From sequence record OQ589852.1: DNA of 45,270 nucleotides. One strand, written 5' to 3'. The position numbers and the translations under genes are program-made. This document shows, piece by piece, positions 1,971-40,529 of the stretch (its first letter is position 1; every line of letters starts with the position of its first letter). This DNA comes from Escherichia phage Ioannina. A model generated the notes under the pieces. The model saw nothing but the letters and a program-made list of their open reading frames with translations. It did no database searches and had not been told where the DNA came from.

Positions 1971-3491
1971 ATGTCTGTAAACGTGGACAACCAACACCCA
2001 CTCTACGCGCGCATTGCGCCTGAGTGGAAGATGATCCGTGACTGCGTTGCAGGTGAAAGGGCCGTTAAAGCGTGCGGCCCGCTTTACTTGCCGTTTCCGT
2101 CCAGTGGCGACAACACCGACCCAAAAGCGAAGGCCCGCTACAATGCATACAAGCAACGTGCGGTCTTCCTGAACGCCACCGCTCGCACGCTTAACGCGTT
2201 GCTGGGTATCGCCTTTGCGAAGCCAGTCACCATGAAGCTGTCCGGTAAAATCGCCGAGCTTATCGACGACGTAGACGGCAGCGGAATGCCATTGCCGCAG
2301 TTACTGCGTGGAGCGATGTCGGAAGTGCTGCAATCCGGGCGAGCCGGTTTTATGGTGGACTATGACCGCCAGGCGCATTTTGACGAACTGGGTAACGTCG
2401 TGCCGCAAACCGCCGCAGAGATGGCGATGCACCGTCCGCTCATTAAGCTGTACACGGCAGAGCAGATCATCAACTGGCGACAGACCCACGGGCAGGACAC
2501 CTTGATCGTGCTGAAAGAGTGCGACGAAATCAGCACCGAAGATACCGACGATTTCGCAAACCACGAAGTTACGATATGGACCGAGCTACGAATGGTCAAC
2601 GGCAAAGCACACGCCCGCCGCTGGTTTTTCAACGCAGACACGTCCGAAGTGCAGATGGATTTACCGCGTGGCTTTACCAAAACCGACCTGGTGCCGCTGG
2701 TAGATTCTGCCGGTCGCGCACTGGATAGCCTGCCGTTTTGCTGGTGTGGTGCAGTCGATAACAACGCCACCCCGGACGCCGCGCCGCTGGCTGATATTGC
2801 GTCCATCAACATTAAGCACTACAACGCCGAAGCGGACGTTGCTGAGATTGCGCACATCGTAGGCCAGCCGACGCTAATCACTACCGGTCTGACCCAATCA
2901 TGGGCCGATAAAAACCTGAAGGGTGGTATCGCGCTCGGTGCGACGAAGGGTGTTATCTTGGGCCAGAACATGGACGCCAAACTGCTTCAGGCCGAAGAAC
3001 GCAACCTGTCCGTGGCATTGTGTGAACGCCGTGAGAAACAGATGGCTAAACTCGGTGCGGCGCTGGTGGAGAAGGGGAGCGCACCTAAAACGGCAACAGA
3101 AGCGGCCTACGACGCGCAGACTGATAACAGTATCTTGTCGCTGATTGCCGGTAACGTTGAGAAGGCATTCAACAAGGCGCTTCAGATCGTGCAGTTGTTC
3201 ACTGGTGACACCGCCGAGCAGACTGTAACCCTGAACAAGTTCTACACCGAAATCACGGTGGATGCGCAGTTGATGACCGCAATGATGAGCGGTGTACAGA
3301 CTGGGACGGTCCGTCTTTCTGATTTCATCAAATGGATGATGGCACAGGGTGTAATCGACGATTCGCAGACTGTAGACCAGGTGGAAGACGACTTGCGGAA
3401 TCAGAATCCGTTGCCGCAAATGTCACCGGATGCGGTAAACTTGGACGATGACGAATCGGACAAGGTAGATGACGATGCCGAGGAAAATTAA
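1971..3491 (+). CDS. portal protein
   Basis: 506 aa directly after TerL; acidic C-terminal tail (DDDESDKVDDDAEEN); size and position typical. Confidence 0.75.
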   Translation: MSVNVDNQHPLYARIAPEWKMIRDCVAGERAVKACGPLYLPFPSSGDNTDPKAKARYNAYKQRAVFLNATARTLNALLGIAFAKPVTMKLSGKIAELIDDVDGSGMPLPQLLRGAMSEVLQSGRAGFMVDYDRQAHFDELGNVVPQTAAEMAMHRPLIKLYTAEQIINWRQTHGQDTLIVLKECDEISTEDTDDFANHEVTIWTELRMVNGKAHARRWFFNADTSEVQMDLPRGFTKTDLVPLVDSAGRALDSLPFCWCGAVDNNATPDAAPLADIASINIKHYNAEADVAEIAHIVGQPTLITTGLTQSWADKNLKGGIALGATKGVILGQNMDAKLLQAEERNLSVALCERREKQMAKLGAALVEKGSAPKTATEAAYDAQTDNSILSLIAGNVEKAFNKALQIVQLFTGDTAEQTVTLNKFYTEITVDAQLMTAMMSGVQTGTVRLSDFIKWMMAQGVIDDSQTVDQVEDDLRNQNPLPQMSPDAVNLDDDESDKVDDDAEEN

Positions 3492-9959: not shown

Positions 9960-10685
9960 ATGGGTTATCAACTTCCTAACGGGTCCAGCGTCCAAATCGG
10001 GTCCGTACAGGGTGCAGGCATCGCAGTTACGGCAGCGTCGAACGCGGCGGCATCTATCAGCGACCTGACTCAAGGTTGCGTAATCACCTGCGCCGCTTCA
10101 CATGGTCTGGCGGTTGGCGACGTGGTTATGTTCACGAAATCCCCGTGGGTCCGTGCGCTTAACCAGGCTTTCATCGTGGGTAAAGTAGACACCAACGACG
10201 TGACGCTGGCGCGCTTCGACACGTCTGATACGACTAAGTATCCGAACGGTGCGTTCCAGGCAGGCACACCGGGTGAGGTCGTGAAGATTTCGAGCTTTAT
10301 CGACTTCCCGTTTATCACCAACGTTGCCGTGTCCGGTGGCGACCAGCAGACGACGACCTTCCAGCCGTTGCAGGTGAATACCGCGATCAGTCTGAACACC
10401 ACGAAAAACCCGTTGGTACAGACCTATACCTTCACCCACGACGAAGAAGACCCGATCCGTCCGATTCTGGAAGACCTGGACGACACGCAGAAGACAACGG
10501 TAATTAAGTTCACTAACCCGGCAGCGTCCAGCGGTAAAGGTGAAATCCGTATCTATGCGGCTAAGGTGTCCTTCCAGAAGATTCCGTCTGCGGAAGTAAA
10601 CAACGTCGAAACGGTACAATCCACTCTGACCATGCAGTCGGAAATGATGATTTACCGCAAAGACCTTGTTGAAGCCTTATCCTGA
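9960..10685 (+). CDS. major tail (tube) protein
   Basis: 241 aa, Ser/Thr/Val-rich beta-type composition; followed by attenuator hairpin and the G/GT chaperone pair. Confidence 0.65.
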   Translation: MGYQLPNGSSVQIGSVQGAGIAVTAASNAAASISDLTQGCVITCAASHGLAVGDVVMFTKSPWVRALNQAFIVGKVDTNDVTLARFDTSDTTKYPNGAFQAGTPGEVVKISSFIDFPFITNVAVSGGDQQTTTFQPLQVNTAISLNTTKNPLVQTYTFTHDEEDPIRPILEDLDDTQKTTVIKFTNPAASSGKGEIRIYAAKVSFQKIPSAEVNNVETVQSTLTMQSEMMIYRKDLVEALS

Positions 10686-10717
10686 TTTGGTCGGGTAAAT
10701 GGCGAGTGTTAACATTG

Positions 10718-10742
10718 GGGGCGTAAGCCCCCTTTTTAATGG
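10718..10742 (+). terminator. attenuator hairpin after major tail gene
   Basis: GGGGGCGTAAGCCCCC followed by TTTTT. Confidence 0.5.
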
Positions 10743-10752
10743 AGAGAATATC

Positions 10753-11115
10753 ATGGCTAAACAATCCCTTTTCACCCTCGACCCAAAACCGACTTTCAAG
10801 CTGCCTATTGAAATCCCGCGTCCGGGCGAGAAAGAGCCGGGTAAGCTGACTTTCACCGTCCGCCACCGTCCGATCGACGAGTTCTCGCAGACCATGCAGG
10901 AGACTGAACGCAAGCTGTCAGAGTATGACCAGAATGACCCGGACGGCTTTAACGTTATGGTCGAGGCCATCATGCATGTGGCTGAAGGCTGGAATCTGCC
11001 GGATGAGTTCACTGAAGAGAACGTACGCCGCCTGGTGGTGAACTATCCGCGTGCGTTCGGCGTGTTCCATACGTCGTACTATCTCGAATTGATGGGCTTG
11101 CGTGAAAAAAACTAA
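10753..11115 (+). CDS. tail assembly chaperone (lambda gpG-like)
   Basis: About 120 aa from MAKQSLF with GGAGAG RBS; ends just after an A-AAA-AAC slippery heptamer; lies between major tail and tape measure genes. Confidence 0.65.
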   Translation: MAKQSLFTLDPKPTFKLPIEIPRPGEKEPGKLTFTVRHRPIDEFSQTMQETERKLSEYDQNDPDGFNVMVEAIMHVAEGWNLPDEFTEENVRRLVVNYPRAFGVFHTSYYLELMGLREKN

Positions 11116-11429
11116 TTGAGGCGGCGCGACGCTTCTATGGTCCGCCGCCACCGTCCGAAGACCTTGCCGCTAGTTTATGGGGTGCGGCCCCCGAAGATAT
11201 TTGTCCGCCAGTTGCATTATGGCCTGATAACGTACAGGTCGTTGCCGTTTTCACTGACTGCTCAACGCAGTGGCGCACCGGTTTTAACGGCGCATACGGC
11301 ATCGACTACGGCGTGCTGGAATGGCTATTTAAAATGCACGGCATCGAAAATGAGAAGCGAGCTTTTAAAGATATCAAGTTAATGGAGCGTATTGCACTCG
11401 ACGAAATTGCAGCACAACAGGCCGGGTAA
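10753..11429 (+). CDS. tail assembly chaperone GT fusion (via -1 frameshift)
   Basis: G frame joined to the -1 frame at the slippery site; the extension is not the track ORF 11116..11382, which is in another frame. Confidence 0.5.
11106..11112 (+). other. -1 programmed ribosomal frameshift slippery site (A AAA AAC)
   Basis: Heptamer sits three codons before the G stop; the -1 frame beyond it stays open for about 105 codons of protein-like sequence (…AYGIDYGVLEWLFKMHGIENEKRAFKDIKLMERIALDEIAAQQAG) ending near 11429. Confidence 0.6.
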
Positions 11430-11440
11430 TTCCGGCCTTT

Positions 11441-11770
11441 TTCATAGCGGGACAGCGGGACGTCCCGTTTTTATCCCGCTGTCCCGCCCAGCCAAAAACT
11501 GCATACCTATTCAGAAATACTGCATAAAACCAAAACGGGACAAAAACGGGACAAGCAGGACGTCCCGCCTCAAAAGTGCATATCTATGCAGTTTTCGTGC
11601 ATAAAACGAACGGGACAAAAACGGGACAAATTGCAAGCGGGACAGAGCGGGACGTCCCGCCGTCCCTGCCAGAGCTGCCGCGGGTTTCAGCCGATCGGGA
11701 CAGGCGGGACAAAGCCCAGTCTTTCAGACTAGACGGGGGTCAATGGCCCCCTCCGTCTGAGACTGAATAA
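11441..11770. repeat. GGGACA iteron-like array plus conserved hairpin, copy 1
   Basis: At least ten CGGGACA/GCGGGACA units in both orientations, GGGACGTCCC palindromes, TGCATAAAAC boxes and the inverted repeat CAGTCTTTCAGACTAGACGGGGG…CCCCCTCCGTCTGAGACTG; about 180 bp nearly identical to 40205-40380. Confidence 0.8.
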
Positions 11771-11832
11771 GGTTGGTTGCAAAATGACTGATACAATACA
11801 AACGGCAACTTGCATAAAAAGGGGACTGCATA

Positions 11833-14475
11833 ATGGCAGATCAAGCGGCAGGCATCACGCTAAAGGCGGATGTTGCACAAATCAGAACGGCGAATACTGT
11901 GCTTGATTCATTCGCACAGAAATCAGAGAACACAGAAAACAAGGTTAAGAAATTAAACAACACCCTCGGCAACTCTAAAAAGGTGACGAGTGATGCCGCT
12001 GGCGGAATGGAAAAGCTGGCGAACGAATCGCATCGAGCAGCCGATGGCATGACGAAACAGGAGCGACTCGCCAACCGGTTAGGCATGTCGACCAAAAACC
12101 TGGGCTTTGCCTCGCGTAACGCCGCATTCCAGTTACAGGATATAGCGGTTACGCTTGAGATGGGTATGCCGGTGCACCGCGTCATGCTTCAGCAGTTACC
12201 ACAGCTTACTGGGGCGTTCGGTGGGTTTGGTAACACGCTGCGTTATGTTGCTGGCTTCCTCGGCCCAGTAGGGATCGGAATTGCAGCACTAACGGCAACG
12301 TTAGGCGTAGGGGTGGCAATTACGTCACGTGCCGAAAACCAGGTAGCAGCGCTTAACAAGACGCTGGCGCTATCCGGTAACATTTCCGGCCTAACTGCAA
12401 ACCAGATCCTGGTGCTATCCGAGAACGCCGAGCGCATGGGCGGGTCGTTCCGCAAGACGCGTGACACAATCCAGGCGCTGGCGGCGGCGGGTGTGAAAGC
12501 GGGTGCAGACTTCGGCACGCTGGCGAAAGTGGTGAATGATTTTGCGAAGGCGTCCAGCCAGCCGATCGAGGATGTGGTCGCGGCGGTGGCGAAGCTGTCT
12601 ACCGACCCGGTAGGTGGCTTGCGAGCATTGGCTGATAAGTATCACGTCGTAAACGAAGCGCAGATCCAGCAGGTGCAGTCACTAGTGACGGCTGGTCGCG
12701 AAACCGAAGCGGTGGCGCTGGCTAACAAAACAGCCGCAGCGTCGTTTACCACTATGACCAATGAGATCAAGTCCAACATGGGTACGCTTGAGCGGTCGAT
12801 GAACGTCGTTACATCGGCAGCTAAATCTATGTGGGATGCCATCCTGGATGTTGGACGCGCGCAGTCCTCGAATGAGTCAGAGATGAAAGCGCGTGAATCA
12901 TTGCAGCGACTGACCACGGCTTACTATGCCGAGATGAAAGCGGTAAACGCTGCCGGTGGGGTGATGACCGAAGCGCAGAAATCGCGTATTAACATGCTTT
13001 ACAGCGAACTGGTCGCCCAGGAGAAGGTGGTGGCGTCGCTCACCCTGCGCAACCGTGCCGAGCGGGACAACGCCAGCGCCGCGGACGCAGCAGCAAAGGC
13101 GAACGAAGAGGCAAACCGCACCGCCCGCGACCGCGCTGCGTTTGAGAAGGAGTACGCAACCAACGCGAAGAGGCGCGCCGACGAGATCGCCCGCCTCAAT
13201 TTGCTTAATAAGCGCGGCGTGATTGACGAGAAAGAGCTTGCCGAGGCGGTGAAGCAGGTAAACGAGCGTTACAAAGACCCCGCCCCGAAGAAGGCCGCCG
13301 CTGTTCGAGTCGATGCCGGGCTGAAAATGCTGGAAGTAGCACGGAGCGAACTGGCACAGCTTCGTGAGTCTGGAAAGCAGATCGAAGCCAACTCCTCGAC
13401 GCAGACCCGAACGCAACGCGCGCAAGCGGCCCTGAACAAGCTGATCGCGGATAATGAGCAGTTAATCGCCGCAAGCAAAGAAAGAGCACTAACGGCAGCC
13501 GAAAAGCAGCAGATGGTCGAATTCGGACGCGTGAAGGAAGTACGCGAGCAGATCGTCGAAGAAGCCAAATTGCTGGACGCGAAAGAGAAGCAGGTCAAGG
13601 CGCACGTGCAGATCGACGCCTTCGTTAAGAACCAGAACGCCGAGCTAAAAGCCACCGCGGCGGGCTATGCGCTTTCCACTCGCGAAGCGGCAAACCTGCG
13701 TGAAGAATTGCAGCTAATTGACCGCCTGAAGCGGGTGGGCGCTAGTGATACCGATATTGATCTGGCGGTGTCTAAACTGCGCGAAGTGCAGGAAGCACAG
13801 ACCGGTGCTAACGCCTCACTATGGGATGGATTCAGCCGTGGGCTTAAGGATAGCGTGGATGAAATGGGTAACGGCTATACGCAGATGGTATCGGCAACGA
13901 AATTTACATTCGGCGCTATGATGGACACGATGAATGAATTTTTCGAGACTGGTAAATTCAACGCGAAGGAAATGATTAAATCCATCCTGAGCGAATTTAT
14001 CAAGCTGGCTACCTCGCAGGCGTTCAAGTCCGTAATCAACGCATTCGGCGGTGACGGTGGGAAGAATGGTCTGTTCGGGGCAATCTTCTCCGGTCTGACG
14101 AAGAATGCCGACGGAGGAGCGTACGCTGGCGGCAACCTGTCCGCATATTCCGGTCAGATCGTAAGCCAGCCAACCTTTTTCAATTACGGCGTTAAGGCGT
14201 TCGCTAACGGCGCGGGATTGATGGGTGAGGCTGGGCCGGAGGCCATCATGCCGCTGAAGCGCGGGCCGGACGGTAAACTGGGCGTTGCCGCAAGTGGGGC
14301 TGGTGGTGGAATCGTCGTGACAACGAACGTGAACATGGGTACAGGGCAGGCTTACACCAGCGTTAAAGGGACCGACCCGCGAATGGGGCAGGTATTCGGC
14401 AAGCAGATCACGGAAGCGGTTAAGGCCGAAATCGTGAAAGCGACTAAACCAGGTGGAGTACTTTACAAACGATGA
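11833..14475 (+). CDS. tail tape measure protein
   Basis: 880 aa, long Ala/Gln/Glu-rich coiled coil, Gly-rich C-terminal part; downstream of G/GT. Confidence 0.9.
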   Translation: MADQAAGITLKADVAQIRTANTVLDSFAQKSENTENKVKKLNNTLGNSKKVTSDAAGGMEKLANESHRAADGMTKQERLANRLGMSTKNLGFASRNAAFQLQDIAVTLEMGMPVHRVMLQQLPQLTGAFGGFGNTLRYVAGFLGPVGIGIAALTATLGVGVAITSRAENQVAALNKTLALSGNISGLTANQILVLSENAERMGGSFRKTRDTIQALAAAGVKAGADFGTLAKVVNDFAKASSQPIEDVVAAVAKLSTDPVGGLRALADKYHVVNEAQIQQVQSLVTAGRETEAVALANKTAAASFTTMTNEIKSNMGTLERSMNVVTSAAKSMWDAILDVGRAQSSNESEMKARESLQRLTTAYYAEMKAVNAAGGVMTEAQKSRINMLYSELVAQEKVVASLTLRNRAERDNASAADAAAKANEEANRTARDRAAFEKEYATNAKRRADEIARLNLLNKRGVIDEKELAEAVKQVNERYKDPAPKKAAAVRVDAGLKMLEVARSELAQLRESGKQIEANSSTQTRTQRAQAALNKLIADNEQLIAASKERALTAAEKQQMVEFGRVKEVREQIVEEAKLLDAKEKQVKAHVQIDAFVKNQNAELKATAAGYALSTREAANLREELQLIDRLKRVGASDTDIDLAVSKLREVQEAQTGANASLWDGFSRGLKDSVDEMGNGYTQMVSATKFTFGAMMDTMNEFFETGKFNAKEMIKSILSEFIKLATSQAFKSVINAFGGDGGKNGLFGAIFSGLTKNADGGAYAGGNLSAYSGQIVSQPTFFNYGVKAFANGAGLMGEAGPEAIMPLKRGPDGKLGVAASGAGGGIVVTTNVNMGTGQAYTSVKGTDPRMGQVFGKQITEAVKAEIVKATKPGGVLYKR

Positions 14476-25808: not shown

Positions 25809-26279
25809 TTATTTAAGTGCGCGAGTTACCAGTGTTTTTTCCATATTGCGGAAGTCTTCCTCGGTCATCTGGATTTTCGACCCGTCTTCACCGTACAGCG
25901 TCACCAGCGGTTGAGCTTTCGCTAAAACTCCCTTCGGCAGCGACCACGCATCAACCTGTTTCTTCAGGCTTTCCAACTGCGCTGCCGTTACGTCGATCTG
26001 GATCTCGTCATGCACAGTTGTGTAAGACTCACCCAGTAGCGCGGAATATGCCACTAAATCCACAATGTTATCTTCCTGGTGTTTACGGGTCTGGCGTACC
26101 AGCTTCAGGCAAATCATAAATACCCAGGCTTCTTGCTCGGTAAGGTCACGACCGGTTAGTGCGTTGAATACGGCAGCGATCTGTTTAGCGCTGCGTTCTT
26201 CTTTGCTGTCATATCCATTTTCTTTCCCGCGCTGTTCCATAGTGGTGGCGGCGTTTTTGCAGTATTCGAATGCTTTCAT
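25809..26279 (-). CDS. putative MazG-like nucleotide pyrophosphohydrolase
   Basis: 156 aa, all-alpha character; segment LKLVRQTRKHQEDNIVDLVAYSALLGE resembles the MazG/HisE family. Weak call. Confidence 0.3.
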   Translation of the reverse strand: MKAFEYCKNAATTMEQRGKENGYDSKEERSAKQIAAVFNALTGRDLTEQEAWVFMICLKLVRQTRKHQEDNIVDLVAYSALLGESYTTVHDEIQIDVTAAQLESLKKQVDAWSLPKGVLAKAQPLVTLYGEDGSKIQMTEEDFRNMEKTLVTRALK

Positions 26280-40175: not shown

Positions 40176-40204
40176 TAGTGTTAAAGAAGTGAATAATTAT
40201 GCAA

Positions 40205-40380
40205 AATACGTGCATAAAACAAACGGGACAAAAACGGGACAAACGGCAAGCGGGACAAAGCGGGACGTCCCGTCGTCCCCGTCAGTCGTGGCGCGGGTTT
40301 GAGGCAAACGGGACAAGCGGGACAGACCACAGTCTTTCAGACTAGACGGGGGGTATTGTCCCCCCTCCGTCTGAGACTGC
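40205..40380. repeat. GGGACA iteron-like array plus conserved hairpin, copy 2
   Basis: Collinear with 11591-11770 (TGCATAAAAC, ACGGGACAAAAACGGGACAA, GCGGGACA-AGCGGGACGTCCCG, CGCGGGTTT, hairpin CAGTCTTTCAGACTAGACGGGGGG…CCCCCCTCCGTCTGAGACTG). Confidence 0.8.
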
Positions 40381-40529
40381 ATAAAATCTCTGGTTGCATA
40401 ATCAACGGCAGCATAGTGAAAAATGCGGCGGGGGTAGATCTCGGCAACCAATGCGAGTTGAAGAGTGGAGAGTGAAAAATGCAGTTTGCAATTGCAACTC
40501 ATAGCGATCAGCATTTTCATGCGCGTGAT

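What the first reader, a model, noticed from the sequence alone, without database searches (positions are those of the whole stretch)
11106..11429. Conserved G/GT -1 frameshift at A-AAA-AAC
The chaperone ORF ends three codons after an A-AAA-AAC heptamer, and the -1 frame continues as plausible protein for about 105 codons up to the repeat region. This matches the programmed frameshift established for lambda G/GT and most long-tailed phages, and confirms the identity of the flanking genes.
Basis: partly seen in the sequence, partly recalled or inferred. Interest (0 to 1): 0.35.

Follow-up and report, generated by a model that had tools for sequence, protein, structure and literature searches.

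The report
Tail chaperone G/GT programmed -1 frameshift
This is an ordinary but real example of the ribosome-slipping trick that long-tailed phages use to make a little of an extended tail-assembly chaperone; it is usually left unannotated in this phage genus.

Summary
The window is a Dhillonvirus (99.9% to LM40P1). A 120-aa chaperone ORF (10753-11115, Pfam Phage_TAC_4) ends ...GAA AAA AAC TAA. The in-phase heptamer A AAA AAC is at 11106-11112. One correction: AAC is the last sense codon, so the stop follows directly, not three codons later.

The -1 frame is closed by TGA at 11103-11105, so the heptamer is the only place where G can join T. It then runs 105 codons to 11429, encodes a DUF1799 domain, and has no start codon before 11313.

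In 16 GenBank phages and 79 IMG/VR contigs, T always follows G in the -1 frame. [quoted passage not shown] Curators already annotate the fusion in related Webervirus phages.

A GC hairpin (11120-11149) lies 7 nt downstream. It shows covariation, and it lies in the strongest dip in synonymous variation across G-T.

AlphaFold models the fusion confidently, with one helix running across the junction.

There is no sequence similarity to lambda G or T, so this is the same mechanism in a different protein family.

It is a new member of a known kind and of low interest.

The parts
10753..11115 (+). Gene G: tail assembly (tape measure) chaperone, 120 aa, ending ...LREKN-TAA
   Evidence: Pfam Phage_TAC_4 1.2e-24, covering residues 1-120. 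PHROG 569. Homologues start MAK.../MAT... at this ATG. The upstream ATG at 10699 would run through a terminator-like hairpin.
10741..10746 (+). Shine-Dalgarno-like GGAGAG, 6 nt before the G start codon
   Evidence: Read directly from the sequence.
11103..11105 (+). TGA stop in the -1 frame, immediately before the heptamer; it sets the 5' limit of the shift window
11106..11112 (+). Slippery heptamer A AAA AAC (X XXY YYZ), in phase with G
   Evidence: The same heptamer sits at the same junction in 9 of 16 GenBank loci and 73 of 79 IMG/VR loci. G GGA AAC takes its place in 2 and 5 loci. No synonymous change in codons GAA AAA AAC among 18 Dhillonvirus sequences.
11113..11115 (+). TAA stop of G, directly abutting the heptamer; its first two bases are reused in the first -1 codon, CTA (Leu)
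   Evidence: This position is always TAA or TGA in 52 unique homologous junctions.
11112..11429 (+). T segment: 105 codons in the -1 frame plus TAA (11427-11429); expressed only as the C-terminal part of GT = join(10753..11112,11112..11429), 225 aa
   Evidence: Pfam DUF1799 7.4e-21, residues 23-99. PHROG 680, and the fused-GT PHROG 17368. The first ATG/GTG/TTG in this frame is at 11313. Homology to relatives starts at residue 1, the Leu.
11120..11149 (+). Candidate stimulatory stem-loop, 7 nt after the heptamer: GGCGGCG (11120-11126) pairs with CGCCGCC (11143-11149), plus inner pairs
   Evidence: MFE -20 kcal/mol, z -2.3, 3 of 200 shuffles fold as well. The outer 4 pairs are kept in 85% of cells over 52 unique sequences, against at most 55% with slid partners, and 44 cells change on both sides. 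The synonymous-site minimum at 11104-11150 is the lowest of 210 blocks, permutation P 0.00015.
10717..10738 (+). Terminator-like hairpin plus T run between the tail tube gene and G
11419..11443 (+). Terminator-like hairpin plus T run overlapping the T stop codon
   Evidence: Terminators are annotated at the same place in Shelby, Solomon and AHS24.
9960..10685 (+). Flanking gene: tail tube / major tail protein
   Evidence: Pfam Phage_tail_3 1.4e-32.
11833..14475 (+). Flanking gene: tape measure protein, 880 aa
   Evidence: Pfam TMP_2 1.5e-43 and Tape_meas_lam_C 1.7e-11.

Best explanation
Most ribosomes translating G (10753-11115) terminate at TAA 11113 and release the 120-aa chaperone G.

A small fraction slip back one base on A AAA AAC (11106-11112). 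In this slip, tRNA-Lys re-pairs from AAA to AAA and tRNA-Asn re-pairs from AAC to AAA. These ribosomes then read CTA ATT GAG... in the -1 frame to 11429. The product is a 225-aa fusion, GT, with the junction ...LREKN-LIEAARR....

The GC-rich stem-loop that starts 7 nt after the heptamer (11120-11149) probably raises the rate on this intrinsically weak heptamer. The abutting stop codon may contribute too.

By analogy with lambda, the G part of both proteins coats the tape measure protein. The rare T domain recruits the tail tube protein. Neither protein ends up in the virion.

Shown here: the sequence anatomy, the protein-family identities, conservation of the -1 junction, the lack of an independent start, and the constraint on the RNA. 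Inferred: that the slip occurs, its efficiency, the stimulatory role of the hairpin, and the protein partners.
For: - Anatomy.
- Protein families: G is Phage_TAC_4 and T is DUF1799. PHROG 17368 is a 213-position profile that matches G at positions 1-107 and T at 148-211, so it was built from fused GT proteins.
- Spread: tblastn of the fused GT finds 1152 phage records. In 763 of them one place covers at least 80% of the query, and nearly all listed rows have two adjacent pieces.
- Junction: in 16 of 16 GenBank loci T is -1 relative to G. In the 79 IMG/VR loci the G stop overlaps the first T codon in the same way, apart from assembly indels.
- Prior annotation: joined frameshift CDSs are annotated in Shelby and Solomon.
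- Independent start: none in the Dhillonvirus T frame until 67 codons in.
- RNA constraint: the hairpin, its covariation and the synonymous-site suppression.
- Structure: the AlphaFold2 model of GT has pLDDT 93.8 and pTM 0.86, with a single helix (100-129) running through the junction. Its structural neighbours are annotated tape measure chaperones, including full-length frameshift products such as Solomon (TM 0.77/0.82).
- Literature: A_AAA_AAC is a proven -1 site in E. coli (IS1). [quoted passage not shown] The lambda G:GT ratio is about 30:1, and the roles of G and T are described in PMC5009743.
Against: - No direct evidence exists for the fusion protein or for the frameshift rate.
- A_AAA_AAC is a poor shifter in E. 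coli without stimulators (PMC4066793).
- The hairpin's energy is only modestly better than shuffles. The window gives z -2.3, other Dhillonviruses about -1.4 to -1.5, and an 88-nt context gives z -0.35.
- RNAalifold finds no consensus structure over all 52 sequences.
- The inner three pairs of the stem hold only in Dhillonvirus and a few other lineages.
- The stem arms encode the conserved residues Ala4 and Pro13, so protein constraint and shared ancestry could account for part of the signal. The tested structure was also derived from the window sequence.
- Some relatives (UALMA_PCEc3, AHS24) show no comparable hairpin.
Confidence: 0.9

Rival explanations
1. Transcriptional slippage. RNA polymerase adds one extra A while copying the run of seven A (11105-11111). 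A fraction of mRNAs would then encode GT in a single frame, with no ribosomal slip.
For: The site is an A7 homopolymer in Dhillonvirus and in most IMG/VR relatives (GAAAAAAAC). One metagenomic contig (L076) carries A8 and so encodes an in-frame GT. The protein product would be nearly the same.
Against: Homologous junctions in other lineages have only 6 A (GTAAAAAAC, GCAAAAAAC), 4 A (GCAAAAGTT, CAAAAGC) or 3 A (GGGAAAC). All of them keep a ribosomal X XXY YYZ or A-AAR pattern in phase. A conserved hairpin 7 nt downstream and a synonymous-site dip match the ribosomal mechanism. From general knowledge (Baranov et al. 2005, cited in PMC4066793), productive slippage by bacterial RNA polymerase usually needs runs of about 9 or more.
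Confidence: 0.07
2. T is made as a separate protein, by internal initiation or re-initiation after G terminates, and is not fused to G.
For: Several GenBank records annotate short separate ORFs in the T frame. In some relatives a start codon lies 7 codons into T.
Against: In this phage the first ATG/GTG/TTG in the T frame is at 11313. That is 67 codons in and lies inside the DUF1799 domain, which starts at residue 23. Homology among relatives begins at the very first -1 codon, with Leu1 invariant and Ala4 and Tyr9 nearly so. The predicted helix is continuous across the junction.
Confidence: 0.02
3. The -1 ORF is a chance open frame or a decaying remnant, and the heptamer is coincidental.
For: None beyond the lack of direct protein evidence.
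Against: The DUF1799 match has E 7e-21. T is 90-92% identical in protein across Dhillonviruses that are about 84% identical in DNA, and it is recognisable at 30-40% identity in Drexlerviridae, Ralstonia and Pseudomonas phages. The heptamer is invariant.
Confidence: 0.01

Closest known systems
Phage lambda G / GT (-1 frameshift at G GGA AAG; Levin et al. 1993; Xu, Hendrix & Duda 2004, 2013, 2014, as summarised in PMC5009743)
   Same: Position between the major tail gene and the tape measure gene. A short G ORF with a -1 extension that lacks its own start. An in-phase heptamer near the end of G. Downstream M/L/K-like genes.
   Different: No detectable sequence similarity of G or T (BLASTP E 9.2; hhalign probability 1.3%). 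The heptamer is A AAA AAC rather than G GGA AAG. The stop codon abuts the heptamer. A candidate hairpin follows. About 400 nt of repeats separate T from the tape measure gene, whereas in lambda T overlaps H.
Tape measure chaperone frameshift products of Drexlerviridae (Klebsiella phages Solomon and Shelby; T1 gp40 family)
   Same: Homologous G and T (28-41% identity). The same -1 junction with the first T codon overlapping the G stop. Solomon uses the same A AAA AAC. The joined CDS is annotated by curators. Solomon's product is a close structural match (TM 0.77/0.82).
   Different: Shelby and PWKp17 have only an A AAA G tetramer-type site. T is followed within about 40 nt by a terminator and then the tape measure gene, with no repeat region.
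Edwardsiella phage eiAU ORF22/23 (PMC3025963)
   Same: The published note describes a conserved frameshift between two ORFs lying between the tape measure and major tail genes. eiAU Gp15 is a structural match to G at 33% identity.
   Different: A different genus. The paper predicted the frameshift with FrameD and gives no shift site.
IS1 insA-insB' -1 frameshift at A AAA AAC
   Same: The same heptamer, proven to shift at low level in E. coli (PMC4066793).
   Different: A transposase fusion rather than a phage chaperone. No established stimulator is reported for IS1.

Membership tests
G/GT-type tail assembly chaperone with programmed -1 frameshift (Xu, Hendrix & Duda 2004 class) | The gene pair lies between the major tail (tube) gene and the tape measure gene | tested here: met
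   Phage_tail_3 at 9960-10685; TMP_2 + Tape_meas_lam_C at 11833-14475; M/L/K-like genes downstream.
G/GT-type tail assembly chaperone with programmed -1 frameshift (Xu, Hendrix & Duda 2004 class) | The second ORF overlaps the end of the first in the -1 frame and has no start of its own | tested here: met
   The -1 frame is open from 11106 to 11429; the first start codon is at 11313.
G/GT-type tail assembly chaperone with programmed -1 frameshift (Xu, Hendrix & Duda 2004 class) | An in-phase slippery sequence (X XXY YYZ) lies inside the overlap | tested here: met
   A AAA AAC at 11106-11112 fills the whole 7-nt overlap window.
G/GT-type tail assembly chaperone with programmed -1 frameshift (Xu, Hendrix & Duda 2004 class) | The arrangement is conserved in homologues despite sequence divergence | tested here: met
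   16 of 16 GenBank loci and 79 of 79 IMG/VR loci (three of them with assembly indels or an ORF-picking error in my script).
G/GT-type tail assembly chaperone with programmed -1 frameshift (Xu, Hendrix & Duda 2004 class) | The fusion protein is made at a low fixed ratio to G | not testable with these tools
   Needs a reporter assay, western blot or mass spectrometry.
G/GT-type tail assembly chaperone with programmed -1 frameshift (Xu, Hendrix & Duda 2004 class) | Both products are needed for tail assembly and are absent from virions | not testable with these tools
   Needs genetics and virion proteomics.
Lambda gpG and gpT sequence families | Detectable sequence similarity to lambda G and T | tested here: not met
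   BLASTP E 9.2 for G; hhalign probability 1.3% for T.
Pfam Phage_TAC_4 (PF08748) | Score above the gathering threshold over the full domain | tested here: met
   87.3 bits against a 21.1 cut-off; profile positions 1-124 of 124.
Pfam DUF1799 (PF08809) | Score above the gathering threshold over the full domain | tested here: met
   74.6 bits against a 26 cut-off; profile positions 1-80 of 80.
Transcriptional-slippage recoding sites | A long homopolymer run (about 9 or more A/T) conserved as a run | tested here: not met
   The run is A7 here. Homologous junctions have 3, 4 or 6 A.
Rfam frameshift elements | A match to a curated covariance model | tested here: not met
   The only match is a chance-level one (asX2, E 0.36, on the minus strand in the repeat region).

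The most novel reading that the evidence does not exclude
The stem-loop at 11120-11149, with its fixed 7-nt spacer, may be a lineage-wide cis-stimulator, perhaps acting together with the stop codon that always abuts the shift site. [quoted passage not shown] If so, the Phage_TAC_4/DUF1799 chaperone family would be a tractable natural series for studying how heptamer strength and stimulator strength co-evolve. The series runs from heptamer plus hairpin, to the same heptamer with no predicted hairpin, to a bare A-AAR tetramer.
Probability: 0.5. Interest if true: 0.3.

Novelty: new member of a known kind. Interest (0 to 1): 0.2.

Why it matters
The main value is for annotation. Four Dhillonvirus GenBank records were inspected in detail. 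None has the joined GT CDS. They list T-frame fragments or a spurious minus-strand ORF as 'hypothetical protein' or 'DUF1799', or leave the T region unannotated. The records closest to this window carry no annotation at all.

Recognising the frameshift gives a 225-aa GT product. It also fixes the identity of the neighbouring tail genes.

Scientifically it adds one more well-conserved case to a textbook phenomenon. There is a modest bonus: evidence for a conserved downstream hairpin at a low-efficiency heptamer.

Tried and rejected
- The search for homologous proteins with the fused GT returned only 3 hits. The word index coped poorly with the query, so I used tblastn against phage records and an IMG/VR scan instead.
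- An Rfam scan of 10600-11900 found nothing relevant.
- The PDB search by sequence and by Foldseek found no solved relative of G or T.
- RNAalifold on the 52 anchored junction sequences predicted no consensus structure. The named-structure count was informative only for the outer four pairs.
- By eye, a possible pseudoknot pairs loop GACG (11128-11131) with CGTC (11153-11156). Other Dhillonviruses have CCCTCC there, so I dropped it.
- I saw no canonical Shine-Dalgarno-like stimulator 6-17 nt upstream of the heptamer. Only GGGC is present there.
- The longer G start at 10699 was rejected. It spans a terminator-like hairpin, and homologues start at the MAK position.
- The promoter scan found no sigma-70-like site in 10600-11900.

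Full report
**What the window is.** A 2.2-kb query around the finding matches Dhillonvirus LM40P1 genomes at 99.4-99.9%. It matches about 150 other Dhillonvirus (HK578-like) coliphages at about 84%. The closest records carry no annotation.

**The observation.** The ORF at 10753..11115 ends TTG CGT GAA AAA AAC TAA.
- The heptamer A AAA AAC lies at 11106-11112 and is in phase, with AAA and AAC as 0-frame codons.
AAC is the last sense codon and TAA (11113-11115) abuts the heptamer.
- The -1 frame has TGA at 11103-11105 and is then open to TAA at 11427-11429. That gives 105 codons from CTA at 11112.
- The only stretch in which a -1 shift can join G to T without meeting a stop is therefore the heptamer itself.
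- A random 7-mer fits X XXY YYZ with probability of about 0.004 (arithmetic).
- AAAAAAC is depleted in the window, with 2 copies against 8.4 expected.

**What the two frames encode.**
- G (120 aa) is a full-length match to Pfam Phage_TAC_4, 'phage tail assembly chaperone' (1.2e-24).
- The -1 segment is a full-length match to DUF1799 (7.4e-21).
- PHROG 17368 is a 213-position profile. It matches G at positions 1-107 and T at 148-211, so it was built from fused GT proteins.
- The flanks are a tail tube protein (Phage_tail_3) and an 880-aa tape measure protein (TMP_2, Tape_meas_lam_C).
- M-, L- and K-like genes follow, which is the lambda tail order.
- The T frame has no ATG, GTG or TTG before 11313. 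That position is inside the DUF1799 domain, so T cannot be made on its own.
- G most likely starts at 10753, with GGAGAG 6 nt upstream. The earlier ATG at 10699 would run through a terminator-like hairpin at 10717-10732, and homologues start at MAK/MAT.

**Conservation.** tblastn with the fused 225-aa GT finds 1152 phage records. In 763 of them one place covers at least 80% of the query, and nearly all listed rows have two adjacent pieces. The groups are Dhillonvirus, Drexlerviridae (Tlsvirus, Warwickvirus, Webervirus, Rogunavirus), and Ralstonia and Pseudomonas phages.

In 16 fetched GenBank loci, T is always -1 relative to G:

| Shift site at the end of G | GenBank loci (of 16) |
|---|---|
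| A AAA AAC | 9 |
| G GGA AAC | 2 |
| A-AAA-G or A-AAG tetramer only | 5 |

An IMG/VR scan with a T-domain alignment returned 80 loci, of which 79 include the junction:

| Shift site directly before the G stop | IMG/VR loci (of 79) |
|---|---|
| A AAA AAC | 73 |
| G GGA AAC | 5 |
| A8 run that fuses G and T in frame (L076) | 1 |

- L056 (A AAA AAC) has a 1-nt indel upstream of the site, so its G frame looks displaced.
- For L068 (G GGA AAC), my script picked the wrong ORF; inspection shows the normal arrangement.
- Homology to the window's T begins at the very first -1 codon in nearly all loci. Leu1 is invariant.
- These loci are not independent samples. Many are close relatives, and the scan kept the best 80 of 593 confirmed hits.

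**Prior annotation.** Klebsiella phages Shelby and Solomon carry a joined CDS labelled as the frameshift product. The related Edwardsiella phage eiAU paper notes the conserved frameshift (PMC3025963).

None of the four Dhillonvirus records inspected (rolling, SECphi18, EE09, SM_S22) has the join. Three list T-frame fragments as 'hypothetical protein' or 'DUF1799', and SECphi18 also lists a minus-strand ORF. Phage rolling annotates nothing in the T region. I found no paper in the held library that describes the frameshift for Dhillonvirus.

**Downstream structure.** A stem-loop starts 7 nt after the heptamer. GGCGGCG (11120-11126) pairs with CGCCGCC (11143-11149), and there are inner pairs.
- It folds at -20 kcal/mol, z -2.3, and 3 of 200 shuffles fold as well.
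- In an 88-nt context the signal is lost (z -0.35).
- Other Dhillonviruses give z of about -1.4 to -1.5.
- Tlsvirus and Warwickvirus keep a stem in the same codon register, with C-G and G-C replaced by U-A, U-A or U-G.
- Over 52 unique junction sequences aligned without gaps, the outer four pairs are formed in 85% of cells. With slid partners the figure is at most 55%.
- 44 cells are changed on both sides, against at most 14 with slid partners. The covariation score is 0.48 against at most 0.24.
- The inner three pairs hold mainly in Dhillonvirus.
- RNAalifold predicts no family-wide consensus.

Caveats on this structure:
- It was derived from the window sequence.
- The sequences compared are related to one another.
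- The arms encode the conserved residues Ala4 and Pro13.

Independent support comes from synonymous variation among 18 Dhillonvirus sequences. The 16-codon block 11104-11150 has the lowest value of all 210 blocks in G-T (0.055 against a mean of 0.245; permutation P 0.00015). The GCG, GCG, CCG and CCG codons are invariant, while the Pro codon just outside the stem varies freely. No second reading frame overlaps 11116-11150, so dual coding does not explain the dip. I rate the hairpin as a probable stimulator, at about 0.5-0.6.

**Mechanism.** The most likely mechanism is tandem -1 slippage, with tRNA-Lys re-pairing from AAA to AAA and tRNA-Asn from AAC to AAA. The junction would read ...LREKN-LIEAARR...
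- A_AAA_AAC is a proven -1 site in E. coli (IS1).
- Low output fits lambda, where G:GT is about 30:1. There G binds the tape measure protein and T binds the tube protein (PMC5009743).
- A variant cannot be excluded: peptidyl-tRNA-Asn alone slips while the abutting stop codon waits in the A site. It gives the same protein.
- The roles of G and T in this phage are inferred by analogy only.

**Structure prediction.** AlphaFold2 with a 24-sequence GT alignment gives pLDDT 93.8 and pTM 0.86. A single helix (residues 100-129) runs through the junction at 120/121. There is no PDB relative by sequence or by fold. The BFVD neighbours are annotated tape measure or tail assembly chaperones. They include full-length frameshift products from phages Scapp, Solomon (TM 0.77/0.82), Seurat, CcrColossus and Loki.

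**Rivals.**
- Transcriptional slippage on the A7 run would give nearly the same protein. It is disfavoured because homologous junctions have only 3-6 A yet keep the ribosomal slippery pattern, and because of the spaced hairpin.
- Independent initiation of T is excluded by the lack of a start codon.
- A chance ORF is excluded by the domain match and the conservation.

**Comparison with known systems.** This works like lambda G/GT and meets every testable defining feature of that class. It is not a member of lambda's own G or T sequence families. It belongs to the Phage_TAC_4/DUF1799 family shared with T1-like phages, in which the frameshift is already annotated.

**Verdict.** This is a new, and in this genus usually unannotated, member of a well-known kind. 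Interest is low (0.2). The only mildly new element is the evidence for a conserved downstream hairpin.

Noticed in passing
window 11430-11830 and 40187-40402: The ~400-nt gap between T and the tape measure gene is packed with repeats. There are 14 copies of CGGGAC on both strands in 11448-11710, GGGACGTCCC palindromes and TGCATAA motifs. The region ends in a strong hairpin (about 11727-11762). A 216-nt part (11574-11785) recurs at 40187-40402 in the same orientation at 82% identity, just after a 754-aa AAA_25 gene. The T1-like relatives inspected have only about 40 nt plus a terminator at this position. Function is unknown; it may be an array of regulator-binding sites.
   Followed up: partly
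window 10717-10738 and 11419-11443: Terminator-like hairpins with T runs bracket the G-T pair. One lies between the tail tube gene and G. The other overlaps the T stop codon. Together they suggest attenuation of chaperone and tape measure expression relative to the tube protein.
   Followed up: partly
L076 (IMGVR_UViG_3300025728_000347), around 893-901; L056, around 880: One metagenomic relative has eight A instead of seven at the shift site, which fuses G and T in frame. Another has a 1-nt deletion in a G run just upstream. These are either homopolymer assembly errors or real variants.
   Followed up: partly
L002 (SECphi18) 2737-3352; L003 (EE09) 1125-1688; L004 (SM_S22) 1432-1898: GenBank Dhillonvirus records split the T frame into short 'hypothetical protein' or 'DUF1799' ORFs. 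SECphi18 adds a minus-strand ORF. SECphi18 also labels G as 'major tail protein', and PHROGs name both the G and T families 'tail length tape measure protein'. All of these are annotation errors that the frameshift explains.
   Followed up: yes
window 11113-11115 and the homologous position in 52 unique junctions (alignment A2, columns 8-10): The G stop codon that overlaps the first T codon is always TAA or TGA and never TAG. T and A are invariant at columns 8 and 10. This may reflect the second T codon always starting with A, or a preference in termination context.
   Followed up: no
whole window: AAAAAAC occurs only twice on both strands, against 8.4 expected from dinucleotide shuffles. One copy is the G/T site and the other is at 25834-25840 on the minus strand. 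This is consistent with avoidance of slippery runs elsewhere in the genome.
   Followed up: no
window 10924-10950 (G codons 58-66): A second, smaller dip in synonymous variation (0.08 against a mean of 0.245) lies inside G, far from the shift site. It is unexplained.
   Followed up: no
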